Shown in pieces: positions 123-17,298 of a stretch of DNA of 20,000 bases. Position 1 is the stretch's first letter, and every line of letters starts with the position of its first letter. The notes under the pieces are model-generated. The model searched no databases. It was not told where the DNA came from and saw only the letters and a list, made by a program, of their open reading frames with translations. A program made the position numbers and the translations under genes. Source of the stretch: an uncultured virus (IMG/VR IMGVR_UViG_3300042310_000554) (Duplodnaviria; Heunggongvirae; Uroviricota; Caudoviricetes); IMG/VR virus record IMGVR_UViG_3300042310_000554, one strand, 5' to 3'.

Positions 123-365
123 TTACAATTTTTTGTATTTGAACACCTTTGAAATATCTGTGGTAAAAAACTTACCCTGTGATTCTGCCATTCTGAATTT
201 TGTATATACATTATGAGGAACTGCCTCATACTCGTATTTCATACCATTTTTAAATTCAGCGATTAATTTTTTAGTTTCTGTATCGTATTCAGTTTTTACG
301 ATATTTGTTGACTCAATTTCGTTAATAATTTTAGTCCCGTCTATTGTTTCTTTTTTTATTGCCAT
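123..365 (-). CDS. KTSC domain protein
   Basis: 80 aa; pattern S-x-I...Y-D...L-x-x-E-F-x-x-G-x-x-Y-x-Y-x-x-VP...Y-x-x-F-x-x-A-x-S-x-G-x-FF typical of KTSC. Confidence 0.85.
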   Translation of the reverse strand: MAIKKETIDGTKIINEIESTNIVKTEYDTETKKLIAEFKNGMKYEYEAVPHNVYTKFRMAESQGKFFTTDISKVFKYKKL

Positions 366-663
366 TTTTTAAAGGTGTTTCTAAATCAATTATTTGTAAT
401 TTATCCATAAGATAATCGTTAAACTCATTATTATCAACATCACCAAAAAAACTTCTTAATTCTGAATAAACATTATCCTTTAATGTTGAGAATTTTTGAA
501 AATTTCTCAATATATCATCCGGATAATATGGGGGACTTTTAATATCCTCATCCGACCAACCCTCTCGTTGGAAAGCCAATCTAATGTTTCTATAAGTCTC
601 TGTTAGTTCATTATCAATACCTAAAGTATTAATATATTTCATCCAAGCATGTTTATAATCCAT
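331..663 (-). CDS. Hypothetical protein (110 aa, likely start MDYKHAW)
   Basis: The ORF-track extension to 855 overlaps clpC and its promoters; ATG at 663 is preceded by TATTTATA (667-674). Confidence 0.65.
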   Translation of the reverse strand: MDYKHAWMKYINTLGIDNELTETYRNIRLAFQREGWSDEDIKSPPYYPDDILRNFQKFSTLKDNVYSELRSFFGDVDNNEFNDYLMDKLQIIDLETPLKNGNKKRNNRRD

Positions 664-688
664 TTTTATAAATATATTAAAAAAATGT

Positions 689-719
689 TTTGGTAATTCA
701 AAAATATGTATTACTTTTG
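689..719 (+). promoter_or_regulatory. Bacteroidetes primary-sigma promoter for clpC
   Basis: TTTG (689-692), 19 nt spacer, TACTTTTG (712-719); matches the -33/-7 consensus TTTG-N19-21-TAnnTTTG. Confidence 0.7.
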
Positions 720-775
720 TCCAATCATTTGAAATAATGAAATTAACCCTTATACTTAAATAAAACAAATTAATT

Positions 776-2827
776 ATGATAGAATCTATGGATGGTAACG
801 AAGGAAGAGGTAAGAACACAAGTGTTTCCGAATCAGCAACACCAGTGTTAGACAATTTTAGTCGAGATTTAATAAAATTGGCTGAAGAAGGGAAATTAGA
901 CCCTGTTATTGGTAGAGAAAGTGAAATAACGAGAATTGCCCAAATTCTTTCTCGTAGAAAGAAAAATAACCCAATTATTATTGGAGAACCTGGTTGTGGT
1001 AAAACCGCAATCGTTGAGGGTCTTGCAATTAAAATCTATAATGGGGATTGTCCAAGAAACTTAATGGACAAAAGAATTGTATCGTTAGATATGACATCAA
1101 TCGTTGCCGGAACAAAGTATCGTGGTCAATTTGAAGAACGAATGAAAGTAATTATAGAAGAATTACAAAACGCACCAAACATCATCGTATTCATTGATGA
1201 GATTCATACCATCGTTGGAGCCGGAAATTCATCAGGGTCAATGGATGCATCAAACATCTTTAAACCAGCTCTTGCTCGTGGGGAAATCCAATGTGTTGGA
1301 GCAACAACATTAGATGAATATAGAAAAAACTTTGAAAAAGATGGAGCGTTAGAAAGACGTTTTCAAAAAGTTGTTGTTGATTCACCAAGCAAAGAAGAGA
1401 CATTACTTATCTTGGAAAACTCAAAAGATAAATACGAATCTTACCATAAGGTAACCTATTCCAACGAGATTTTAAATCTATGTGTTGATTTAGCGGAAAG
1501 ATATATCACCGATAGAGAATTTCCGGATAAAGCGTTTGACATCTTGGATGAGGTTGGCGCAAGAAGTCAGGTAGAGATTAAAACTCCGGACTCAATAGAA
1601 AAGTTGAAACTCCAAGCGTTTGATATTAAACAACAAAAAATGGATGTTGTTAAACGACAAGATTATGAGGAAGCCGCAAATCTTCGTGATAAAGAAAAAA
1701 GAGTCTTAAATAAACTTGAATCTGAAAAGAAAAAGTTTGAAGAGGAACTTCTTACAAATAAAAAAGAAATCACCATTGATTTGGTTTATGAGGTTGTATC
1801 CAATATTACCAAAATTCCAATTACCAAATTAAACTCTGATGAGACTAAATTATTATCCGAAATGGAAGTTAATTTATCGGATAAAGTTATTGGACAATCC
1901 GATGCAGTTTCAAAAATTGCTAAGTCAATTAGAAGAAGTAGAATTGGGATTAAAGACCCAAACAAACCAATTGGTTCATTTATCTTTTTAGGGTCAACCG
2001 GTGTTGGTAAAACATATCTGGCAAAACAACTCGCCAAACAAATGTTCGGTAGTGAGGATAATATGATTCGTGTGGATATGTCAGAATACCAAGAAAAACA
2101 TACCATATCAAGATTAATCGGAGCACCTAGCGGATATGTTGGTTATGAAGATGGTGGACAACTAACCGAACAGGTTAAAAATAAACCATATTCTGTTATT
2201 CTATTTGATGAGGTTGAGAAAGCTCATAAAGATATTTTCTCCACACTTCTTCAAGTATTGGATGAAGGACACCTAACCGATAGTTTAGGTAAGAAAATCA
2301 ATTTCAAAAATTGTGTGATTATTATGACCTCAAATGTTGGAGCAAAAAAATTACAAGATTTTGGTTCAGGTGTTGGTTTTAAAACTGGGTCAAGTACCTA
2401 TGTTGAGGAAGAATATCGTAGAGATGTTTTGAAAAAGGAATTAAAGAAATTCTTTACTCCGGAATTTTTAAATCGTGTAGACGAGATTGTAATCTTTAAT
2501 TCTTTAGTGAAAGAAGATGTTAAAAAAATCGTGAAATTAGAATTGGACATCTTAACTAATAGATTAATTGGAATGAAATACGACATCACTTTTGATGGTA
2601 GTGTTTTAGATTTAATATCTGATGTTGGATTTGATGAGACTTACGGAGCAAGACCAATTAAACGAGCTATCCAAGACAAACTTGAGGATTTTGTATCAGA
2701 GGAGATTATAAAAGGAAATGTGGTTGAAAACACCCCATACACGATTATCTCTGTGGATAAAGAAATTAAATTTCAAGAGGTTGTAGAAGTTGTGAAAAAG
2801 ACAAGAAAGAAAAAGGGGGATGTATAA
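776..2827 (+). CDS. clpC: ClpC-like AAA+ unfoldase lacking the N-terminal Clp-repeat domain
   Basis: Two AAA modules (GEPGCGKT/IVFIDEIH; GSTGVGKT/ILFDEVEK), GTKYRGQFEER pore loop, short UVR-type middle domain (QDYEEAANLRD), VGF ClpP-docking loop. Confidence 0.92.
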   Translation: MIESMDGNEGRGKNTSVSESATPVLDNFSRDLIKLAEEGKLDPVIGRESEITRIAQILSRRKKNNPIIIGEPGCGKTAIVEGLAIKIYNGDCPRNLMDKRIVSLDMTSIVAGTKYRGQFEERMKVIIEELQNAPNIIVFIDEIHTIVGAGNSSGSMDASNIFKPALARGEIQCVGATTLDEYRKNFEKDGALERRFQKVVVDSPSKEETLLILENSKDKYESYHKVTYSNEILNLCVDLAERYITDREFPDKAFDILDEVGARSQVEIKTPDSIEKLKLQAFDIKQQKMDVVKRQDYEEAANLRDKEKRVLNKLESEKKKFEEELLTNKKEITIDLVYEVVSNITKIPITKLNSDETKLLSEMEVNLSDKVIGQSDAVSKIAKSIRRSRIGIKDPNKPIGSFIFLGSTGVGKTYLAKQLAKQMFGSEDNMIRVDMSEYQEKHTISRLIGAPSGYVGYEDGGQLTEQVKNKPYSVILFDEVEKAHKDIFSTLLQVLDEGHLTDSLGKKINFKNCVIIMTSNVGAKKLQDFGSGVGFKTGSSTYVEEEYRRDVLKKELKKFFTPEFLNRVDEIVIFNSLVKEDVKKIVKLELDILTNRLIGMKYDITFDGSVLDLISDVGFDETYGARPIKRAIQDKLEDFVSEEIIKGNVVENTPYTIISVDKEIKFQEVVEVVKKTRKKKGDV

Positions 2828-2844
2828 TCCCCCCTTTAAATACC

Positions 2845-2879
2845 AAAAAAATAACCCCACCTTTCGGAGGGGTTTTTTA
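2845..2879. terminator. Bidirectional intrinsic terminator between the convergent clpC and peptidase genes
   Basis: A-tract, AACCCC-aCC-TTTC-GGa-GGGGTT, T-tract; a second hairpin AAAGGGGGA/TCCCCCCTTT spans the clpC stop (2812-2837). Confidence 0.75.
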
Positions 2880-2880
2880 T

Positions 2881-3702
2881 TTAAAACTTATAAAAATATT
2901 TTGAATCTGTTTTATAAAGATATTTTTTATACCCCAAATCCTGAATCATCTTTTTACCGGTCTCTATTCCACTATAAACATCCTCAACAACCACATATTC
3001 ATTTTTAGTGTGATAGTCGTAATAACCTATCGCAAAATTGATACAGGAGAAGTCAAAAATGTTTTTTAAAGCATAAACATCGGTATAAGGATGTGATTGG
3101 TAATCGTGTCTACCCTGAAACCCCTCGTTTAAAGCAACATCACAAATTTTAAAGAACTCCCCATCTCTATCAAATAGTTGAGTTCCCATACAAAATTCAC
3201 TAACCATAACATTTCCTGGAGCATCAAACTGAATCCCATAACCAACATTCATAAAGAAGTCAGGACTTGCTTTTTTGGACCCGTGACATCCGGTTTCTTC
3301 TGATACGAAGAATGCCGCCTTTAGATTTGGTAATTCTTTTAATAATTCCAAACAAGCATAAACACCACATTTATCATCACCACCAATTCCGGTTGGATTT
3401 CCAAAATCGTTAAACGCCTTTAATGATGGTTTTAATTCATTCTGCTCATTTACGGAAAATATCTCACGAACATTAATCGTGTCTATGTTATGAACCGTAT
3501 CTGTATGAGCAATAACACAGGGAAAATAATCTATAAATTCGTCTGTTTGTTTTGTTGCGTAGATATTATTATGTTCATCCACATTGAAGGGAATCCCATT
3601 TTCCTCTAACCAATTGATTAGAAATTCTACCATAAGGTCTTCTTGATATGTTTTTGTCGGAACCGACAATACATCTTTTAATAATTGATAATTTCTTTCC
3701 AT
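2881..3702 (-). CDS. M20/M28-family zinc metallopeptidase
   Basis: Motifs AHTDTV, GGDDKCG, SEETGCHGS, FD and YHT characteristic of Zn exopeptidases. Confidence 0.85.
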   Translation of the reverse strand: MERNYQLLKDVLSVPTKTYQEDLMVEFLINWLEENGIPFNVDEHNNIYATKQTDEFIDYFPCVIAHTDTVHNIDTINVREIFSVNEQNELKPSLKAFNDFGNPTGIGGDDKCGVYACLELLKELPNLKAAFFVSEETGCHGSKKASPDFFMNVGYGIQFDAPGNVMVSEFCMGTQLFDRDGEFFKICDVALNEGFQGRHDYQSHPYTDVYALKNIFDFSCINFAIGYYDYHTKNEYVVVEDVYSGIETGKKMIQDLGYKKYLYKTDSKYFYKF

Positions 3703-3743
3703 AGCACAAATATAGGGAAAATAATTAACATAAAAACATTATT

Positions 3744-5105
3744 TTAATTTATTCTAACAAAACCCTCAAATAATTCGGGTGAAACTAAAAAGTTATTAAA
3801 TTCTTCTTCGGTATAACTTCTACGAGCAACACCAGTTTTAGTGAAAACATCCATGTGTATTCTATTTGTTTCGGGGTCAATTTCTCTAATAAAAAATTCT
3901 CTACCATACGAAGTCTTACTTCTAGTGTTAGTCGGGTATTTAGAGACAACTCTATCGTAGATATTTGAATATTCTAAAATATCAACATACTTATCGGATT
4001 CTTCTAATTCCTCAAGTATTTCATCTAATTCTTCCCCTATAACAATATTAAGTCGTTCTTCATCAAAATCATCACATTGTATTTCATATCTATATTCATC
4101 CCATCCACCAGTGTTAAATGTGTGTCCGATATCTGTTAAAACACCCTTAATGTCTTTAGTGGGGTCTTGACTAATCTTAAACATTGATAATAAAAGACCG
4201 ACAGTGGTATAATAAGTTCTAAAACAATCTATATTTATTAACCCATAATTTTGAAAAATTTCACAAATTTCATCCTTAATTTGTTTTTTAGCATCATCGT
4301 GACGACACCCATTTTCAAGGTCTACATACTCTTCTAAGATATTTTCAATTTTACCCTCAAACATTTCCATCAATTTTTGAGCCGCCACTTCTTTCTTATC
4401 ATCATCATCTAACAAAATTAAATCAGGTGAAATATATTTTAAAATTTGTTTTAATTTACCCTTATTTTCATCTGAAAACCACCCGAAAAAATACCCCCCA
4501 TGCCAATCATCGGCGGCTATATTATAATCAACATAATCATATGTGTCGCCGTAATATGAAAATAATCTATCCACATAATAAACATCTTCTTCTTCAACCT
4601 GAAATAATTTAACATAATCCGAAATTTCATCAAAACGTAATTTGATTGTACTTTTACCTGGATTTTTTTCATTGTAATTAAATTTATAAACTAAATCGTC
4701 AGCACCTTCCATTTCATTAGATGACACCGGTTCACCATTCTTAACCTTAACCAATAATTCATAAATTGGACTATAACCAATTATGGGTTCAAGTTCCGAT
4801 TTAACTTCATCAGGTAACTCATAAAATAATTCTTTCCTATCAATAAGTCTATATCTCATAGCCTCACTACCCAAATAAAGTATTTCATTATCGGGACCTT
4901 TATGAATAACATATATTTGGATAGGTTCTTTATCTTTATCAATAATAAAGTAAGTATTTCCATCCCGAAATTCATCCCATTTAGATTTTATCGAAGGAGG
5001 AGCGTAATATATAAAAGAATCGTAATCCATTGGTTCAACAATTAACCAATCGTCATTGTCAAATATTGTTTTAAATTCCCCGTGAGAGTCGTTTTTATCG
5101 GGCAT
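3744..5105 (-). CDS. Hypothetical acidic phage protein (453 aa)
   Basis: Long ORF, no recognised motif, TATTTAT upstream (5123-5129). Confidence 0.75.
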   Translation of the reverse strand: MPDKNDSHGEFKTIFDNDDWLIVEPMDYDSFIYYAPPSIKSKWDEFRDGNTYFIIDKDKEPIQIYVIHKGPDNEILYLGSEAMRYRLIDRKELFYELPDEVKSELEPIIGYSPIYELLVKVKNGEPVSSNEMEGADDLVYKFNYNEKNPGKSTIKLRFDEISDYVKLFQVEEEDVYYVDRLFSYYGDTYDYVDYNIAADDWHGGYFFGWFSDENKGKLKQILKYISPDLILLDDDDKKEVAAQKLMEMFEGKIENILEEYVDLENGCRHDDAKKQIKDEICEIFQNYGLINIDCFRTYYTTVGLLLSMFKISQDPTKDIKGVLTDIGHTFNTGGWDEYRYEIQCDDFDEERLNIVIGEELDEILEELEESDKYVDILEYSNIYDRVVSKYPTNTRSKTSYGREFFIREIDPETNRIHMDVFTKTGVARRSYTEEEFNNFLVSPELFEGFVRIN

Positions 5106-5137
5106 AGATATTTATTTTAATAATAAATATATTTTTA

Positions 5138-5168
5138 TTTGGAATTATCTAAAAATGTATTATCTTTG
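5138..5168 (+). promoter_or_regulatory. Bacteroidetes-type promoter for tmRNA
   Basis: TTTG (5138-5141), 19 nt spacer, TATCTTTG (5161-5168), 14 nt upstream of the mature 5' end. Confidence 0.75.
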
Positions 5169-5182
5169 TAGAGTTAAAATAT

Positions 5183-5598
5183 GGGAGTGACACGGAATTG
5201 ACTATTCGTAATAGTTATTCGGGGCACGTAGTGAGATGTTCTCTATCACTTAAATCTATGGGTACAACAATTTAGACGGAAACGTTTTAAACAAAATGGC
5301 TCTATTAGGTCTTGTACGTCAAGATGAGCTTGTGAACGTAGCGTAAGCAAACACACATTGGGGTCGACAGACAGATGTACCTAGCAACAGAACTGTCTTA
5401 AGGTGTAATACCACCAGAAGATGTATTAGGAGTCTCGTTCAGGGGTCTACTCCAACACAAGTGAACCCGACACAGTTATTGGTGACGATGTCAAAATAGG
5501 AACCAAATATTTGTCAGTTGAGAATTAACTGAATAAACGTGTAGTCCTTAATAGGTAATACAAGTAACACCGGGGTTCGAGTCCCCGCACTTCCACCA
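5183..5598 (+). ncRNA. ssrA: tmRNA (one-piece, 416 nt); tag frame 5278-5346 encodes (A)GNVLNKMALLGLVRQDELVNVA
   Basis: 5' GGGAGTGA...GGAATTGAC; acceptor stem GGGAGTG/CACTTCC with G3.U70; T-arm CGGGG-TTCGAGT-CCCCG; encoded ACCA end; TAGAC before the GGA resume codon; smpB nearby. Confidence 0.95.
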
Positions 5599-5602
5599 AA
5601 AG

Positions 5603-5630
5603 AAAAACCCATCATACGATGGGTTTTTTT
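5603..5630. terminator. Bidirectional intrinsic terminator downstream of tmRNA
   Basis: AAAAACCCATC-ATAC-GATGGGTTTTTTT. Confidence 0.85.
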
Positions 5631-5654
5631 GTTATCAGTTCAAATGTTTATTTT

Positions 5655-6020
5655 TTAATCTTTTAATACTTGTTTATCCCCAACCGGAGATGTAAATTTA
5701 TTTGTTAATTTATCTAATCTTGAATCAAAATTTCTATATACGTCTCCAAACATTTTATCAACGTCATCCATTCTTTTGTTGGTGTATGTATTTGCTTCAG
5801 TATATAATCTATCAACCCTATCAATCTCACCATCAATACGACGATTGAGAGAATCACCACCACTATTAATATCATTGAAGATATGTCCTTGAACTTGTTC
5901 TAATTGTTTGCATTTATTTTTTAATCTGTTAATCTGATTGCACATTATAACCATAACCACAACTCCCAGTACCCCGAGAACCAAACCTATACCCATAATG
6001 AACGATGTTAAATCTACCAT
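5655..6020 (-). CDS. Hypothetical membrane-anchored coiled-coil protein
   Basis: N-terminal hydrophobic helix (FIMGIGLVLGVLGVVVMVIM) followed by heptad-like repeats. Confidence 0.75.
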   Translation of the reverse strand: MVDLTSFIMGIGLVLGVLGVVVMVIMCNQINRLKNKCKQLEQVQGHIFNDINSGGDSLNRRIDGEIDRVDRLYTEANTYTNKRMDDVDKMFGDVYRNFDSRLDKLTNKFTSPVGDKQVLKD

Positions 6021-6069
6021 AATTTCTTTTTTTTATTTGTTTATTATTGAACTGATGATTAAGTATAAT

Positions 6070-6098
6070 AAAAAAAGGGACTATTTCAAGTCCCTTTT
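6070..6098 (-). terminator. Intrinsic terminator overlapping the smpB stop
   Basis: AAAAGGGACT/AGTCCCTTTT inverted repeat followed by a T-tract on the minus strand. Confidence 0.7.
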
Positions 6099-6518
6099 CA
6101 TATCTCTCTCTATGTCCCGAGATTTGATGGTATCTCGTTTATCGTGTATCTTCTTCCCTTTGGCAAGAGCAATTTCCATCTTAATCAATCCGGTGTCGTT
6201 TATGAAGACGCGATAAGGAACGATTGTGGTACCATTGATTAACTCATTCTCCAACTTAATAAGTTCTTTTCGTTTGGCTAATAGTTTTCTATCCTTTACG
6301 GTCTCGTGGAACGACCCAAACCCATAATCGGAGATGTTCATCCCCTTTATAAATAACTCCCCGTCATTAAAATAACAATACCCTTCAGAGATGGATACCT
6401 TCCCCTGACGAATGGACTTTACCTCTGAACCAACTAGTTTGATTCCCACAATTAGTGTCTGTAGGAATGAATACTCAAACTTGGCTTTCTTATTGACTAT
6501 GTTAATTGATTTTTTCAT
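6081..6518 (-). CDS. smpB: SsrA-binding protein SmpB
   Basis: NKKAKFEY, GIKLVGSEVKSIR, RKLL and the C-terminal tail LAKGKKIHDKR. Confidence 0.96.
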   Translation of the reverse strand: MKKSINIVNKKAKFEYSFLQTLIVGIKLVGSEVKSIRQGKVSISEGYCYFNDGELFIKGMNISDYGFGSFHETVKDRKLLAKRKELIKLENELINGTTIVPYRVFINDTGLIKMEIALAKGKKIHDKRDTIKSRDIERDMKRDLK

Positions 6519-6522
6519 AGGA

Positions 6523-6553
6523 CAAAGATAATATAAAAATTGATATAAACAAA
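6523..6553 (-). promoter_or_regulatory. Bacteroidetes-type promoter for smpB (probably leaderless mRNA)
   Basis: TTTG (6553-6550), 19 nt spacer, TATCTTTG (6530-6523), 4 nt before ATG. Confidence 0.75.
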
Positions 6554-6583
6554 AAAAGGTGACACAAATTAATGTATCACCTT
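6551..6583 (-). terminator. Intrinsic terminator closing the large ncRNA
   Basis: AAGGTGATACA-TTAATT-TGTGTCACCTT plus T-tract on the minus strand (the U.G wobble forms only in this orientation). Confidence 0.8.
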
Positions 6584-6584
6584 C

Positions 6585-7473
6585 TTGGCTTAATACGATG
6601 AGAATACTCGTCTTATTGAGAATCTTCGGAAGGATTATTGTTTCCCTTCGTTTCCACCATCTTTTGAATGGTAATCCTCATTGCCGATTGGTTAGACCAA
6701 TCACTCCTTGAGATATCATCTACTCTCTCATTATTCAACTCTCTTTAACCTTGCGAGCTAACTCAGGATTCGACTCCTTAGAGGTTTTTGGCGAGAATAC
6801 ATTCAGACTTGCGGTCATCCTGTGCAACGAACGGCTCGTTACTATGTAGGCAACTTGTCGACGATACCTGGTAAACATTTTTGCTATTGTCTATTTAGTT
6901 TTTCACCATATGAAAATAGTTAATGTGTTGTGGATGTATTCAGGAAGTAGTTTACCGTAAGCTCCCTAACCTTTTGGGTTAAAGAATACTAAACTTCCCG
7001 ATGAGATATCCCTATCTCCAAATTTCAAGAATTCTTCAAATCAATATCTTGGTAGATATTTGATAGGGATAAAGTCAGCACCACCTGTTACTTAATCTTG
7101 CCTTTCGGCGTTAAGATTCCTTTAATTTTGGAACTCGCAATCATAAGGTTGGATAACCTTACTTCTCACATAATCCCTATGAATTATTTTTATTGGTGTT
7201 CCCACCTCAAACAGACAACCCACATTGCCTATTCAGTTTTCCATTTCCCTACGAAGTCATCCTCGGTACTACAGGCTCACTGATATTTCACTTGCTTACT
7301 CGAGTTCGGTTTCCCAAACCCCAAAATTAGTAACACAACTAATTTCGGTTTAATCCTCATTTCTGAGTTTATTTAAAGATGATAAGCCACCTATTATCTT
7401 TGATACAACACCGAAGTGTTATAATGGATAATCTAAAATTTCTAAGAACGTCTTTAAGGTTTCCCTTAATTGT
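6585..7473 (-). ncRNA. Large (~890 nt) structured non-coding RNA, GOLLD-like candidate
   Basis: No credible ORF; dedicated promoter and terminator; at least 12 hairpins, several with GNRA or cUUCGg loops and G.U pairs on the minus strand; adjacent to tRNA-like genes. Family assignment is not verified. Confidence 0.8.
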
Positions 7474-7477
7474 TTTA

Positions 7478-7508
7478 CAAAGGTAAGTGATTTTTTTCTA
7501 AAGTCAAA
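7478..7508 (-). promoter_or_regulatory. Bacteroidetes-type promoter driving the large ncRNA
   Basis: TTTG (7508-7505), 19 nt spacer, TACCTTTG (7485-7478). Confidence 0.78.
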
Positions 7509-7615: not shown

Positions 7616-7633
7616 AATTTTTTTTTAAAAAAT

Positions 7634-7729
7634 AAAATGTGTTGTGTAAGCTCTACCACTGCAGCTAAACCTTGGTCACCAGGATTACGGTTGTTGGAAT
7701 CGAACCAACGACTCTACACGACACATTTT
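7634..7729 (-). ncRNA. Circularly permuted tRNA mimic (YrlA/Y-RNA-like) #2
   Basis: Terminal stem AAAATGTGTCGTGTA/TACACAACACATTTT; then GAGTC, T-arm GTTGG-TTCGATT-CCAAC, closed acceptor-like stem AACC...GGTT, TA, D-arm GCT-GCAGTGGTAG-AGC. Confidence 0.75.
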
Positions 7730-7731
7730 TG

Positions 7732-7822
7732 TGGTATCAGATGGGCTCGAACCACCGGCACAGAGACTTTCGGGACTCCTGCTCTACCAAGGGAAATAAA
7801 TCTCCCACTGAGCTATAATACC
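7732..7822 (-). tRNA. Atypical tRNA or tRNA-like RNA (Phe-like body, aberrant anticodon loop, D-loop hairpin insertion)
   Basis: Acceptor GGTATTA/TGATACC+A; D-stem GCTC/GAGC with a 16-nt insert GGGAGATTTATTTCCC; anticodon arm GGAGT-CCCGAAAG-TCTCT; T-arm GGTGG-TTCGAGC-CCATC; no encoded CCA. Confidence 0.65.
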
Positions 7823-7830
7823 ATATAAAA

Positions 7831-7914
7831 TAATGCGGGTGTATGCTCTACCATCTGAGCTACGGATTTGAAACCGGAGGGATTTGAAACCTCGACACAA
7901 CACCCACACCATTA
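7831..7914 (-). ncRNA. Circularly permuted tRNA mimic (YrlA/Y-RNA-like) #1
   Basis: Terminal stem GTGTGGGTGT/ACACCCGCAT; T-arm GAGG-TTTCAAATC-CCTC; closed acceptor-like hairpin CGG-TTTCAAAT-CCG; TA; canonical D-arm GCTC-AGATGGTA-GAGC. Confidence 0.72.
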
Positions 7915-7938
7915 CTTCAACGAACTTATTTTCTTCTA

Positions 7939-7970
7939 CAAAGATAATACATTTATTTTAATCTGTCAAA
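7939..7970 (-). promoter_or_regulatory. Bacteroidetes-type promoter for the tRNA-mimic cluster
   Basis: TTTG (7970-7967), 20 nt spacer, TATCTTTG (7946-7939). Confidence 0.75.
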
Positions 7971-8197: not shown

Positions 8198-8218
8198 TTT
8201 TTTTTATTTTTTAATTTG

Positions 8219-8311
8219 TAGTCAGGAGAGGAATCGAACCTCTCTACAGGGAGCTACCCGTCATCCATGACCTTCCATCGGACTCGAACCGACCTTGTAT
8301 CCAACCTGACT
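8219..8311 (-). ncRNA. tRNA-like RNA with two T-loops and no D or anticodon arm
   Basis: Acceptor AGTCAGG/CCTGACT+A; T-arm AGAGG-TTCGATT-CCTCT; interior closed by TACA/TGTA holding TCGG-TTCGAGT-CCGA, GTCA-TGGA-TGAC and GGG-TAGCT-CCC. Confidence 0.65.
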
Positions 8312-8458
8312 ATTTTTCGCTAATGTTAAAAACTGAATCAATCTCCCTAAAAAACACTAACTTGGTACTTACTATATCGGCTCCCCCATCCTAGTTATAT
8401 ATTCACCTGAAACTTCGATGGGTTGTTGATTGACCACACCCACCTACTCAAATAGTTT

Positions 8459-13362: not shown

Positions 13363-14388
13363 TTACAACTTTTTAAATTCCGGTTTGATTAGATTCCATA
13401 TAATTTCAGAATAATCTTTTTTATCAAACATCCTAAATAAAATACCTGACAAATGTTTATTTTGTTGTGACACCCACTCAGCAAATTCTTTTCTATCTTC
13501 TATGGGTTCTTTGTCGTTATATTTACCATACATTTTACCATCAAACTTTTTACCAGCATCTTCAGATATTTGGAAATAAGAATACCTTAATTCTTTTACA
13601 TAATTTTTAATTTTGGTGTAAAATTCATCCGGAACATCTTTTAATAATTCCATTACATCCTCATCATTTTTTAAATACTCCCAAATACCGGTTGTAGATA
13701 CATTAGTCATAATTTTGTGAAGACGCAAATATTCAACACCTTTAACTTTGACTCTGTCCCCATTTGAGAACTTCACCACAAACCCTTCTTGGTCGTTTTT
13801 AACCATTTCTTTTAATTGTTGGTAGTCCTTGATACCATCGTATTTTTTAACCACATCAAAACCCCACTCATCCCAATCTGACATGTCATAATCTTTACCC
13901 CAATTATCGAATGCTCCCAATAGGACCAGTTTCTCTTCACCTTTATAATCCAAAACAATTCTGTTTTCCGGATAGATAATCTCAAAACAAAATGTCATAT
14001 GTCTGAACATTATGTCTGTATTGTATTTCTTTAAGAGTTCTCTTGCTTTGATTGCTTGGTCTGATGTAAATGAACCACGAGTCGCCACCACCCATTGACC
14101 CTGATACCAAAATACAATACCTAATGAACCGTCCATTTTTTCATAAACCTCAAAAGTTTCGGTAGGAGTATATTTTCCTTCCTCAATATTAAAGAATTTT
14201 TTAAATGGTGTCGCAACAATGTCTCCTTTGTCATCAGTAACTAAACCTCTACACATAAGAGTCACCTCATCCCATAGGTTCTCGTACTGAACTTTTTCAG
14301 AGTAGTTCCATATGGTTAATGGAAGTGTTGGATGCACTTGTTTGTAAAGTAATCCGTCTTCGTAATATTTGTTTAGTTTTTCTAACAT
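13363..14388 (-). CDS. rnl1: T4 Rnl1-like RNA ligase
   Basis: CRGLV, PFKKFFN, motif I EKMDGS, TRGSF, FEII, EGFVV, VKVK. Confidence 0.9.
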   Translation of the reverse strand: MLEKLNKYYEDGLLYKQVHPTLPLTIWNYSEKVQYENLWDEVTLMCRGLVTDDKGDIVATPFKKFFNIEEGKYTPTETFEVYEKMDGSLGIVFWYQGQWVVATRGSFTSDQAIKARELLKKYNTDIMFRHMTFCFEIIYPENRIVLDYKGEEKLVLLGAFDNWGKDYDMSDWDEWGFDVVKKYDGIKDYQQLKEMVKNDQEGFVVKFSNGDRVKVKGVEYLRLHKIMTNVSTTGIWEYLKNDEDVMELLKDVPDEFYTKIKNYVKELRYSYFQISEDAGKKFDGKMYGKYNDKEPIEDRKEFAEWVSQQNKHLSGILFRMFDKKDYSEIIWNLIKPEFKKL

Positions 14389-14392
14389 AATT

Positions 14393-14530
14393 TTATTTTT
14401 TCTTTTTCTTTTTTTTAATAGGTCTTTCAGGTCTTTCTAAATATCTTGGGGGTAAAGGAATTTGTCTTCCCCCTCTGAATACACACCCATTTCCCATCAT
14501 GAGGAAGGACCAAATAAACCACCCTATCAT
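14393..14530 (-). CDS. 45-aa hypothetical protein MIGWFIWSFLMMGNGCVFRGGRQIPLPPRYLERPERPIKKKKKKK
   Basis: ATGA overlap with the kinase stop; fills the gap exactly to 4 nt before the ligase ATG. Confidence 0.55.
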   Translation of the reverse strand: MIGWFIWSFLMMGNGCVFRGGRQIPLPPRYLERPERPIKKKKKKK

Positions 14531-14910
14531 AATTTTATCTCAAATCTATCTTTCATCTGTACTAATTTATCCTCCGGAACTCCGTGTTCATTTACACCAC
14601 CGTGTCTATTTTCCACAATGATGGAGAACACTTTATATCCGTATTTTGATGCTAAGTCATAATATGGTAGCATTTCCCACTCTTGTGTGAATGTGTTAGA
14701 TACTACCACTCTTTTACTTTTATTTTCCATAAAAACTCTCACAGCGTTTTGACACCAAGCGTGAGCATCTTTTAATTTAGAACCATCAAATTCGTACTTA
14801 CCTTCGTAGGTAAAGTATTTATCTGCTTCCATATGCGACCCCCCTAATGATTCCGCCAATGTTGTTTTACCTGAGCCGGGACAACCACGAACTAAAAATA
14901 ACTCTTTCAT
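14527..14910 (-). CDS. P-loop kinase (AAA_33, polynucleotide-kinase-like)
   Basis: RGCPGSGKTT Walker A, EADKYF, VVSNT, HGVP. Confidence 0.82.
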   Translation of the reverse strand: MKELFLVRGCPGSGKTTLAESLGGSHMEADKYFTYEGKYEFDGSKLKDAHAWCQNAVRVFMENKSKRVVVSNTFTQEWEMLPYYDLASKYGYKVFSIIVENRHGGVNEHGVPEDKLVQMKDRFEIKL

Positions 14911-14911
14911 A

Positions 14912-15193
14912 TTAATTTTTTAAATATTTTACAATCTTTTCAATTCCTTCGGTATCATCCGAATTAATAATAAACTCATCAAACGCTCCGTATCTACATT
15001 GATAACCAAAAATATATTTCAAACCATAACTAACTCTTTCCCAAAAAGGTCGTTTAGTTAAATGAGTATGGATATAAACCATTGGATATTTTACACCATC
15101 AATTTCATCTTCATCATATAAGACAACCATTTGATGTTCCGTATTATGACAGGAACAAATGAATAAATCTTTTTGTGTTTGCTTAATTTCCAT
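14912..15193 (-). CDS. Hypothetical protein (CxC...H motif)
   Basis: Tightly packed ORF in the operon. Confidence 0.7.
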   Translation of the reverse strand: MEIKQTQKDLFICSCHNTEHQMVVLYDEDEIDGVKYPMVYIHTHLTKRPFWERVSYGLKYIFGYQCRYGAFDEFIINSDDTEGIEKIVKYLKN

Positions 15194-15686
15194 GTTTTTT
15201 CAGTCGTTTTTTTATCTTTTTTAATACTATTTTATCATTCGCAGCATCTTTTAGTGAATTATATTTAGAGTAGGATTCTTTAGTTAGTTTTAATAACTCA
15301 ATACTTTCTTCATCCGATAAATCAAATAAAATATGACCACAAATTACTTTTGTTATAAATCTATAAGTCGTAACTGTTGTCCAAAATTTCTTTAATCCAA
15401 AATATTTTGTCTTATAAATCTCATCCGCAGAACTATAATCCCACTGCGTATAAACTCTAATATCGGGTTCACCATCTTCAAATTTTAAAGTAAACTCCAT
15501 TATATCGGGACTTATGTGTTCTGATTTGTCATAATTCTCTTTAACTTTAAACCGCTTTGTAACGTATGGTGATGGACTATAACCACCACAATATATGTGA
15601 TTAGCAAAATAACAATTGTGAAAAATATTTTCACCACCAACATTCTTTAATTCTTTGTGAATTAATTCTAAAATTTTTTCTTTCAT
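15183..15686 (-). CDS. Hypothetical protein
   Basis: Tightly packed ORF in the operon. Confidence 0.7.
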   Translation of the reverse strand: MKEKILELIHKELKNVGGENIFHNCYFANHIYCGGYSPSPYVTKRFKVKENYDKSEHISPDIMEFTLKFEDGEPDIRVYTQWDYSSADEIYKTKYFGLKKFWTTVTTYRFITKVICGHILFDLSDEESIELLKLTKESYSKYNSLKDAANDKIVLKKIKKRLKKHGN

Positions 15687-15687
15687 C

Positions 15688-16350
15688 TTATTTTCTTTTT
15701 CGACCTTCGTCTGTTATCATTTCATCTGTGTGATGGTCATTATCCATATTTGATTTAATTTCTCTCAATTTTACAATCTTAATAACATTATCTAATGAGT
15801 ATGGTGCAAAAAACAATGAACCATCAATACCAACATCCATTCTACGACCCTTACCAAAGATTTTACCCGTTGGGAGATGTACATGTCCATGGAGGTGAAT
15901 ATGACCCTTATTTAACCCATCCCAAGAATCTATAGGATAGTGCATTAAAACCAAAGTGTCAAATTTATACATCAATTTTGTGTAATGATTAACACTCGCA
16001 AACAATTCCTGACAATCACCCCGATTGGTCTCAATGTGGTGGTCATGATTACCTAATATAAGGTGAATCTCTTGACACACAATTCTGTCTCTAAAAATTT
16101 TAATATTTTCAAAACCACCAAAACTCCAATCACCAAGATGAATCAAAACATCGTCTTGACCAACAACACTATTTATACCATTTACAATGGCATCATTCAT
16201 TTGACCAATTGAATCAAAATCTCTTGTTTGGTGAATTGGAACACTTCCATCCGGAAGCCTCCATTCTGTTACGCCACGACATATATTCTTATGTCCAAAG
16301 TGTGTATCGGATATAATCCAAACTTTTCTATCGTTATCTATCTTAATCAT
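15688..16350 (-). CDS. Calcineurin-like metallophosphoesterase
   Basis: SDTHFGH, HLGDWS, GNHD, MHYP, HGHVH motifs. Confidence 0.9.
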   Translation of the reverse strand: MIKIDNDRKVWIISDTHFGHKNICRGVTEWRLPDGSVPIHQTRDFDSIGQMNDAIVNGINSVVGQDDVLIHLGDWSFGGFENIKIFRDRIVCQEIHLILGNHDHHIETNRGDCQELFASVNHYTKLMYKFDTLVLMHYPIDSWDGLNKGHIHLHGHVHLPTGKIFGKGRRMDVGIDGSLFFAPYSLDNVIKIVKLREIKSNMDNDHHTDEMITDEGRKRK

Positions 16351-16840
16351 ACTGCAAATCTAATTCTTTTTTTCCAAACCAAAAAGGTTTTTCTCTGTTT
16401 TTCCAAGATGCTAAATTAATTTTAGCCCCCATATAATAATTTCTATAAGATTCCACAACAGAATCCGTTTTAAACTCATCCGGCATTGCCATTGCTGGTT
16501 GAGTAAAACCAATATCCGGGATGTTAGGTCTATTTAAAATACACCATAAAACTACTTCAATTGATTTATGTCGTTTACCATACCTGTGGGTATATTCTTT
16601 ACCCAATTCCAAACCCAATTCACACAAGTACAAATAATTTGATAAACTCTGACGAGCCCACACCGCACATGGGTGATTTTTATGAGATAATTTGTACGGT
16701 ACTTGGTCGTTAACTTGGTCGGTTACGTGATGAACCGAACATAATAACTGAGCCGTTTCCAAAATCATTTTTATAACATGTTTATCAACATGATATTGAG
16801 CCGATAGTTTAGGATTCTCATCCAAGAAAAATATATTCAT
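16343..16840 (-). CDS. denV: Pyrimidine-dimer DNA glycosylase / endonuclease V-like protein
   Basis: MNIFFLD...DKHVIKMILETAQLL, HKNHPCAVW, EYTHRYGKRH, AMPD, YRNYY; start at 16840 by TGATG coupling. Confidence 0.75.
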   Translation of the reverse strand: MNIFFLDENPKLSAQYHVDKHVIKMILETAQLLCSVHHVTDQVNDQVPYKLSHKNHPCAVWARQSLSNYLYLCELGLELGKEYTHRYGKRHKSIEVVLWCILNRPNIPDIGFTQPAMAMPDEFKTDSVVESYRNYYMGAKINLASWKNREKPFWFGKKELDLQYD

Positions 16841-17298
16841 CACACATGTGGTATTTTGACTCTCACACAAGTTTGTGCTTGACCCTCGTTCATATAAAAA
16901 TTATTCAAATAACCCATAATGTTTGCACTTCCAATTGGATTGGCCGAATGAACATATACGGTTGGAAAAACAAACTTATCTGATTTTCTCTCACTTCTTG
17001 TCATATTAAAACGACCCTCGTTTGTATTGTGAAATAATGCTACCAAGAATTTGGATGCGTCATATCCGGTTTTCTCATTAATATTGTTATAATCCAAAGT
17101 ATAATTTGGTGAAACATTATTAAAGTATTCTTTTATTGCTGTGTCACCCAAATCGTGGTCCAAGGAGATTACATCAATATTTTCTAAACCAATTTTGTTA
17201 ACTTCATTAACAAATTCATCGTAATCTCTTACAACAATCCAATCATCTCCGGTTGGAGTTCTTATATCATCGAGATAAATTCTATAGAGTGTTTTCAT
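16840..17298 (-). CDS. Cyclic-phosphate-processing receiver-domain protein
   Basis: IYLDDIRTP, WIVVR, ISLDHDLG, TGYD, HSANPIG motifs. Confidence 0.8.
   Translation of the reverse strand: MKTLYRIYLDDIRTPTGDDWIVVRDYDEFVNEVNKIGLENIDVISLDHDLGDTAIKEYFNNVSPNYTLDYNNINEKTGYDASKFLVALFHNTNEGRFNMTRSERKSDKFVFPTVYVHSANPIGSANIMGYLNNFYMNEGQAQTCVRVKIPHV

What the first reader, a model, noticed from the sequence alone, without database searches (positions are those of the whole stretch)
6551..7508. ~900-nt ORF-free, ornately structured RNA gene with its own promoter and terminator
Seen: a Bacteroidetes promoter (7478-7508) and an intrinsic terminator (6551-6583) bracket about 890 nt with no credible ORF in an otherwise gene-dense genome. 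Minus-strand hairpins include UUAAGG-GAAA-CCUUAA (7454-7469), AACAC-UUCG-GUGUU (7407-7420), CUCA-GAAA-UGAG (7356-7367), an 11-bp stem (7321-7348), GGUUUGG-GAAA-CCGAACU (7303-7320), a 10-bp stem (7209-7234), UAAGGUU/AACCUUA (7144-7161), GCC-GAAA-GGC inside AAUCUU/AAGAUU (7094-7118), 7040-7064, GAGAUA-GGGA-UAUCUC (7003-7018), 6824-6842 and GAUUGG/CCAAUC (6686-6702). GNRA/UUCG loops and G.U pairs appear only in the promoter orientation. Known: GOLLD (~800 nt) and ROOL are giant phage-associated ncRNAs found near tRNA genes, with unknown function. Inference: this is a divergent GOLLD or a new giant ncRNA class, placed directly upstream of smpB.
Basis: partly seen in the sequence, partly recalled or inferred. 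Interest (0 to 1): 0.9.

Follow-up and report, generated by a model that had tools for sequence, protein, structure and literature searches.

The report
GOLLD RNA with rRNA-style leader
The gene-free stretch is a full-length member of the known cage-forming GOLLD RNA family in a large freshwater bacteriophage; the new detail is that it starts with the hairpin and boxA signal its likely hosts use to transcribe ribosomal RNA.

Summary
The RNA gene is real, but it is not a new class. Its 3' half matches the whole Rfam GOLLD model (6595-7001, minus strand, 288.9 bits, cut-off 150). Its 5' half is colinear with env-38 GOLLD, the cryo-EM 14-mer cage. In 30 homologues, 81 of 119 pairs of the 5' half show changes on both sides, and the loops that join cage subunits are kept. 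Relatives are ~310-kb phages, probably of Bacteroidota. Two features were not found in the papers I could search. (1) An ~80-nt leader, absent from the cryo-EM construct, holds a hairpin and GUUCUU(U/A)GAAA. The motif occurs in 50 of 51 lake-type GOLLDs. In host genomes the same layout precedes 16S rRNA (34 of 120 hits), so it is the rRNA boxA antitermination signal. In these phages it otherwise marks only non-coding RNA promoters (6 of 233). (2) GOLLD is the most variable locus among near-identical phages, and its alleles are mosaic. smpB has its own promoter, so the adjacency is not co-transcription. The scan earlier noted boxA before other phage RNAs, not GOLLD. The cage's job is inferred, not shown.

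The parts
7478..7508 (-). Bacteroidota-type promoter: -33 TTTG (7508-7505), 19 nt, -7 TACCTTTG (7485-7478); start inferred at ~7473
   Evidence: the promoter consensus is recalled; the start is inferred from two window genes whose ATG lies 4 nt after the same box
7454..7469 (-). 5'-terminal hairpin (boxB-like position)
   Evidence: hairpin in 44 of 45 GOLLD leaders and 33 of 34 host 16S leaders; 3 of its 4 pairs change on both sides
7439..7449 (-). boxA-type antitermination signal GUUCUUAGAAA
   Evidence: unpaired in the consensus fold
7393..7432 (-). rest of the leader: short helix (7432-7427 with 7398-7393) around a variable UUCG hairpin
   Evidence: pairs in the window; not recovered by the consensus fold, so weaker
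7002..7392 (-). GOLLD 5' (cap) domain, env-38 type
   Evidence: colinear with env-38; covariation
6595..7001 (-). GOLLD P14, A-rich linker (~6930-6885, no embedded tRNA) and 3' (ring) domain
   Evidence: Rfam RF02032 positions 1-416 of 416, 288.9 bits, E 5e-82; no tRNA found inside
6551..6586 (-). intrinsic terminator; its T run doubles as the -33 box of the smpB promoter
   Evidence: a terminator-like hairpin follows GOLLD within ~55 nt in 25 of 45 homologues
6523..6553 (-). separate smpB promoter (TTTG, 19 nt, TATCTTTG), ATG 4 nt downstream
6081..6518 (-). smpB (neighbour, separate transcription unit)
   Evidence: Pfam PF01668, E 3e-46
7624..7919 (-). upstream cassette: YrlA-like RNA (7919-7823), tRNA-like gene with a hairpin in the D loop (7822-7732), second YrlA-like RNA (7731-7624); own promoter (-7 box at 7946) with a degenerate boxA
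   Evidence: Rfam YrlA 38.4 and 26.9 bits, below the cut-off of 69; folds
5183..5598 (+). tmRNA (neighbour)
   Evidence: Rfam RF00023, 71.2 bits

Best explanation
A stand-alone GOLLD RNA gene of the env-38 (lake) type in a ~310-kb phage, made the way its host makes ribosomal RNA. SHOWN by comparison: family membership, a conserved fold in both halves, conserved inter-subunit loops, and a promoter-hairpin-boxA leader identical in layout to Bacteroidota rRNA leaders. INFERRED: host RNA polymerase starts at ~7473; boxA loads NusB-S10 and the rRNA-type antitermination complex, which shields the untranslated ~920-nt transcript from Rho and helps it fold as it is made; the transcript stops at ~6551; copies assemble into a hollow RNA-only cage, more likely the env-38-like 14-mer than the smaller S. 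agalactiae form. MOST LIKELY JOB (inferred, about 0.35 on its own): an abundant decoy or sink that protects phage translation from host RNA-cutting or RNA-sensing defences, working beside tRNA mimics, tmRNA-SmpB and RNA-repair enzymes. The confidence given is for identity, leader and cage, not for the job.
For: Rfam full-model hit. 5' half: 97.6% of cells paired, 81 of 119 pairs with changes on both sides, score 0.54 against 0.23 in shuffles and at most 0.10 in slid controls. Bridge loops in 45 homologues: B4 UCC:GGA 45, B5 UGGU:ACCA 45, B7 paired in 45 (GC:GC 40, GG:CC 5), L14 CAAAA 44, L24 CAAAA 45, L11a GAAA 45, self-complementary CG or GC in L21a and L21b in 45 (mapping to env-38 bridges by eye). 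boxA-like motif within one mismatch in 45 of 45, in 4 of 4 further loci with longer leaders and 1 of 2 huge phages. Host scan: 34 of 120 hits have a 16S start within 600 nt, 8 more lead into tRNA genes, and 9 of the 34 carry the window's exact variant. In phage loci the motif follows 18 of 18 GOLLD promoters and 6 of 233 other promoter matches, all six before YrlA-like RNA or tmRNA. B. subtilis rRNA leaders have a 5' hairpin then a similar boxA that binds NusB (PMC13753749, passages). Contigs from RNA libraries cover it. For the job: neighbours and high allele diversity with a kept fold.
Against: No binding of Bacteroidota NusB to this motif, no transcript ends and no strand were measured; the RNA evidence is contigs only, from runs picked with a query that contains GOLLD. 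The consensus fold was derived from the same alignment on which pairs were counted. The 16S fraction has no matched control scan without boxA; 36 of 120 hits end too near a contig edge to classify and 50 lack a 16S start within the fetched DNA. One huge-phage GOLLD lacks boxA (L292), and 23 of 24 GOLLD loci that match only in the 3' part lack it within up to 2.4 kb, so GOLLD does not need it everywhere. Stoichiometry cannot be read from sequence. The decoy role has only indirect support, and recombination also affects smpB.
Confidence: 0.8

Rival explanations
1. Same RNA and cage, but the job is to hold or store translation parts (tRNAs, tRNA mimics, ribosomal subunits) inside or on the cage.
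For: Kretsch et al. propose encapsulation and cite ribosome pull-down (PMC12286853); some mycobacterial GOLLDs embed a tRNA in the linker (PMC12990946); neighbours are translation RNAs; relatives carry 13-26 tRNAs and often bS21.
Against: No tRNA in this linker (36-65 nt). Storage would not explain why sequence varies more than in flanking protein genes.
Confidence: 0.25
2. The leader's main job is to soak up NusB-S10 and so cut host rRNA synthesis; antitermination on GOLLD is a side effect.
For: The promoter-boxA unit is single-copy but fronts what looks like an abundant RNA.
Against: A sink would favour many copies; there is one promoter-linked site per genome in 4 of 5 records. The motif keeps its place relative to GOLLD even behind a tRNA or a longer leader, as a loading site would.
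Confidence: 0.1
3. The 11-mer is a leftover of a promoter captured from a host rRNA or tRNA operon and no longer works.
For: The whole layout resembles host leaders.
Against: It is kept in 50 of 51 lake-type loci while the hairpin loop and spacer change, and both host variants (T/A at position 7) occur.
Confidence: 0.1
4. GOLLD allele diversity is neutral: many lake phages carry GOLLD, so its conserved segments simply recombine often with a wide donor pool.
For: Loci from the pattern scan that are 56-88% alike elsewhere share 91-94% in one segment (L090, L099, L118, L130); smpB halves also give conflicting trees; tmRNA is variable too.
Against: GOLLD is the lowest of 13 features in six close phages (78% and 84% against 87-99%), which selection for diversity would also give. 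The data do not separate the two.
Confidence: 0.5
5. A new giant RNA class, or a regulatory leader of smpB.
For: The 5' 470 nt match no Rfam family at the gathering score; smpB follows at 34 nt.
Against: The Rfam model covers only the 3' 416 positions; the 5' half follows env-38. A terminator and a separate promoter lie between; 20 of 39 loci have 290-3995 nt between the two genes; no GOLLD lies near more distant smpB genes (0 of 38 by nhmmer; 0 of 11 of these by Rfam).
Confidence: 0.02

Closest known systems
GOLLD RNA, Rfam RF02032; env-38 GOLLD 14-mer cage (PDB 9MEE; PMC12286853)
   Same: Full 3' model match; 5' domain colinear; size ~800 nt from the first env-38 helix; loops of bridges B1-B10 have counterparts; phage gene near tRNA-like genes.
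   Different: Own promoter and terminator instead of following a tRNA; extra ~80-nt leader with hairpin and boxA that the published env-38 construct lacks; neighbours are YrlA-like RNAs, smpB and tmRNA. B7 reads GC:GC here and GA:UC in env-38.
S. agalactiae GOLLD 12-mer (PDB 9L0R; seen only through the review PMC12990946)
   Same: Same 3' domain family.
   Different: The review says it lacks P9, P11a-c and P21b; counterparts of P11a-c and P21b are present here (labels assigned by eye).
rRNA operon leader (5' hairpin, boxA; NusB-S10 antitermination complex)
   Same: Promoter, hairpin, then GUUCUU(U/A)GAAA at 26-28 nt, as in Bacteroidota 16S leaders (20-42 nt); B. subtilis consensus AUGAUCUUUGAAA; E. 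coli-type GYTCTTTAANA.
   Different: It fronts a phage cage RNA, not rRNA; no long leader-trailer processing helix is evident; binding untested.
bS21-encoding freshwater Bacteroidetes phages (PMC9723584)
   Same: Relatives of 282-322 kb; bS21 in 3 of 5; 13-26 tRNAs; SmpB appears in that paper's gene table.
   Different: That paper's text and searchable supplements never mention GOLLD or tmRNA. Clade membership was not tested with a tree.

Membership tests
GOLLD | Conserved 3' domain matching RF02032 | tested here: met
   288.9 bits, model 1-416 of 416
GOLLD | Variable but structured 5' domain, total about 800 nt | tested here: met
   colinear with env-38 by eye; covariation; 880 nt with leader
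GOLLD | Conserved inter-subunit kissing loops and A-minor loops | tested here: met
   against Supplementary Table 2 of PMC12286853; B2 shown only as a conserved GAGG...AC motif
GOLLD | Phage or prophage gene near tRNA genes | tested here: met
   tRNA-like genes at 7732-7822 and 8218-8312; relatives are complete phage records with tRNA arrays
GOLLD | Expressed as an abundant RNA | tested here: inconclusive
   present in RNA-library contigs, without strand, ends or level
GOLLD | Forms an RNA-only dihedral cage | not testable with these tools
   needs mass photometry or cryo-EM
rRNA-type boxA site | Matches the host's rRNA-leader motif, after a 5' hairpin, single-stranded | tested here: met
rRNA-type boxA site | Binds NusB-S10 and confers antitermination | not testable with these tools
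   no data for Bacteroidota found
ROOL, OLE, HEARO, RNase P, group I/II introns | Rfam match | tested here: not met
   no hit at gathering score or at E up to 5

The most novel reading that the evidence does not exclude
Lake-type GOLLDs are pseudo-rRNA genes: the phage uses the host's boxA signal to route its long non-coding RNAs (GOLLD, tRNA mimics, sometimes tmRNA) through the rRNA antitermination and folding machinery, the natural transcript carries a leader missing from solved structures, and the cage is an anti-defence decoy whose helices are swapped between phages to vary sequence while keeping shape.
Probability: 0.25. Interest if true: 0.7.

Novelty: new member of a known kind. Interest (0 to 1): 0.4.

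Why it matters
GOLLD's structure is solved but its function is open. This locus adds three handles. The boxA leader says how a 900-nt untranslated phage RNA can be made in full and gives a point mutation to test it. The natural mosaic alleles show which helices can be swapped without breaking the cage. The neighbourhood (tRNA mimics, tmRNA-SmpB, RNA ligase and kinase) points to translation protection in a phage group whose published description does not mention GOLLD.

Tried and rejected
New RNA class: rejected. Coding ORFs inside: rejected. Co-transcription with or regulation of smpB: rejected on sequence grounds. My first hand-drawn pairing of loop UGUGGG with 7183-7178 was dropped: the consensus fold gives that strand another partner, and the loop pairs instead with the linker in 42 of 45. 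My first L4 pseudoknot was dropped for the same reason. Ro60/TROVE partner for the YrlA-like RNAs: none in 5 related genomes. Depth ranking from contigs (GOLLD bins 220-7100 against 0-0.8 over smpB in runs X2-X4; even cover in X1) is not used as evidence of level, as the tool warns. The window's own genome is not held, so gene content comes from relatives. The env-38 sequence was compared by eye only, so no identity figure is given. A search for the boxA motif in the supplements of PMC12286853 found nothing, but gapped alignments, one picture-only PDF and one oversized spreadsheet could hide it. PMC7549688 is not held.

Full report
Observation. The promoter boxes, the hairpins and the terminator are at the stated places. 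The minus strand folds better than shuffles (z -6.45) and better than the plus strand (z -3.02). Two short plus-strand ORFs overlap the stretch but stay open in only 4 and 6 of 45 homologues.

Identity. Rfam gives GOLLD (RF02032) at 7001-6595, all 416 model positions, 288.9 bits against a cut-off of 150. The model covers only the 3' part, so I studied the 5' part separately. I read the env-38 GOLLD sequence and bridge table in the supplement of PMC12286853 (main text parts 1-3 of 9 read). By eye, from about 7394 onward the window follows env-38 in order: first hairpin and its pseudoknot, the GAAA hairpin, the GAGUARRCAAG segment, the GAGG...AC loop, the GGAA loop, the UCC and GGGA kissing loops, GGU and ACCA, and P14. 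No identity figure is given because that comparison was not computed.

Homologues. Of these 163, 78 matched nearly the whole gene, 44 after removing duplicates; with the window this is the set of 45. Thirty of them, under 93% alike in the 5' half, were aligned. The consensus fold has 111 pairs, 80 with changes on both sides. With two pseudoknots added, 81 of 119 pairs change on both sides, 97.6% of cells pair, and the score is 0.54 against 0.23 in shuffles and at most 0.10 when partners are slid. The structure came from this alignment, so the slid control is lenient, but the number of independent pair types is far beyond that effect. The loops that join subunits in env-38 are kept: B4 and B5 in 45 of 45, B7 paired in 45 of 45 with two forms, CAAAA loops in 44 and 45, and self-complementary dinucleotides in L21a and L21b in 45. 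A cage is therefore likely; its size is not determined.

The phage. The window's genome is not held. Close relatives are 282-322 kb records with 13-26 tRNAs, and 3 of 5 encode bS21. This fits the bS21 phages of freshwater Bacteroidetes (PMC9723584, passages and supplement search), whose text and searchable supplements do not mention GOLLD or tmRNA. The host is inferred from that paper and from the promoter type (consensus recalled). The window also encodes SmpB, tmRNA, a ClpC-like ATPase, a T4-type RNA ligase, an AAA_33 kinase-like protein and a phosphoesterase.

The leader. The env-38 construct begins about 80 nt downstream of the inferred start here. That leader is conserved: a hairpin (44 of 45), then GUUCUU(U/A)GAAA or a one-mismatch form (45 of 45), 26-28 nt after the -7 box in the 40 where the box was matched. 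I had dropped loci whose match began later; four distinct ones with upstream DNA all have the motif, further from the promoter but at the same place relative to GOLLD, and one fragment has no upstream DNA. Of two 635-642 kb phages, one has it between tRNA-Met and GOLLD and one lacks it. That is 50 of 51. A 16S start lies within 600 nt in 34, the contig ends within 250 nt in 36, and 50 are other; 8 of the non-16S loci lead into tRNA genes by ARAGORN. Nine of the 34 have the window's exact variant and 33 have a hairpin before it. No matched scan without the motif could be run, but rRNA promoters are a tiny share of all promoters (general knowledge). B. subtilis rRNA leaders have the same hairpin-then-boxA design and bind NusB (PMC13753749, passages); the E. 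coli-type consensus is close (10.1101/091223, passages). In the phage loci the motif follows 18 of 18 GOLLD promoters and 6 of 233 other promoter matches, five before YrlA-like RNAs and one before tmRNA (the 233 include chance matches). Promoter plus motif occurs once in each of 4 of 5 phage records, always at GOLLD; the fifth has a variant promoter and its only exact motif is at GOLLD. Against generality: of 24 distinct GOLLD loci that match only in the 3' part and have over 1.3 kb upstream, 23 lack the motif and 9 follow a tRNA.

Relation to smpB. smpB has its own promoter, whose -33 box is the terminator's T run, with the ATG 4 nt after the -7 box. GOLLD was found beside 39 of 42 smpB genes of 70% identity or more (the three misses have 0.3-1.9 kb of upstream DNA) and beside 0 of 38 more distant ones. 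The gap is under 100 nt in 19 of 39 and 290-3995 nt in 20. This is clade synteny, not a leader-gene pair.

Allele diversity. In the window and five close phages, mean pairwise identity is 78% for the 3' half and 84% for the 5' half, against 87% for tmRNA and 91-99% for the other ten features. Segment identities form a patchwork. Trees of the two halves reject each other (log-likelihood gaps 427-787 on 24 taxa). The control is only partly clean: the two halves of smpB also reject each other, with gaps of 55-70 on shorter, less divergent alignments. So helices are exchanged between phages; whether selection drives this is open.

Expression. Twenty-four runs hold part of the region, 21 on record as RNA, from 18 studies. 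In four laid runs, contigs cover GOLLD, including one of 636 nt (6683-7318, 14 differences) across the 5'/3' junction. Contigs give no strand, ends or level.

Mechanism. Shown: identity, fold, bridge loops, leader layout. Inferred: start near 7473, loading of the rRNA-type antitermination complex at boxA, termination near 6551, cage assembly. For the job I favour a decoy that protects phage translation from host RNA-targeting defences (about 0.35), ahead of storage of translation parts (0.25) and a NusB-S10 sink (0.1); the rest is unassigned.

Print status. GOLLD is well described. No paper linking GOLLD to boxA or Nus factors appeared in six searches (several list only the top 15-30 rows). 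The library lacks most subscription papers; I did not see Weinberg et al. 2009 or the S. agalactiae structure papers, whose supplements may bear on the leader. Earlier scan notes report boxA before other phage RNAs and the neighbouring rescue island and tRNA mimic in relatives; I saw them after finding the motif and they are not counted as support.

Verdict. A real RNA gene, a new member of a known family, with an apparently unreported rRNA-style leader and mosaic alleles. Interest 0.4.

Noticed in passing
window 7919-7624 (-): Two YrlA-like circularly permuted tRNA mimics flank a tRNA-like gene, behind one promoter; no Ro60/TROVE gene in 5 related genomes.
   Followed up: partly
window 7822-7732 (-); L291 ~1160-1255 and ~2355-2450: tRNA-like genes with a hairpin inserted in the D loop and no clear anticodon; the same design flanks GOLLD in a 635-kb phage.
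   Followed up: no
window 8312-8218 (-): A second odd tRNA-like gene with extra arms; ARAGORN calls it tRNA-Pro, Rfam gives only a weak tRNA-Sec match; present in some close relatives and absent in others.
   Followed up: no
window 6530-6516 and 3714-3700 (-): smpB and the peptidase gene have the ATG 4 nt after the -7 promoter box, which suggests leaderless mRNAs.
   Followed up: partly
window 13363-16350 (-): RNA ligase, AAA_33 kinase-like protein and phosphoesterase genes form a likely RNA-repair cluster, with a cREC_REC protein at 16840-17298.
   Followed up: partly
window 5183-5598 (+): tmRNA is also more variable among close phages (87%) than most protein genes; in one relative its promoter is followed by boxA.
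   Followed up: partly
window 776-2827 (+): ClpC/ClpB-like ATPase of 683 aa beside a KTSC protein and an M20/M42-like peptidase.
   Followed up: no
L165, L166, L174, L214, L225, L233, L260, L282: In Bacteroidota genomes the promoter-boxA unit also fronts tRNA operons, not only rRNA operons.
   Followed up: partly
L090, L099 (5' half): The GAAA loop that points to the cage's inner circle in env-38 carries an inserted hairpin in some relatives.
   Followed up: no
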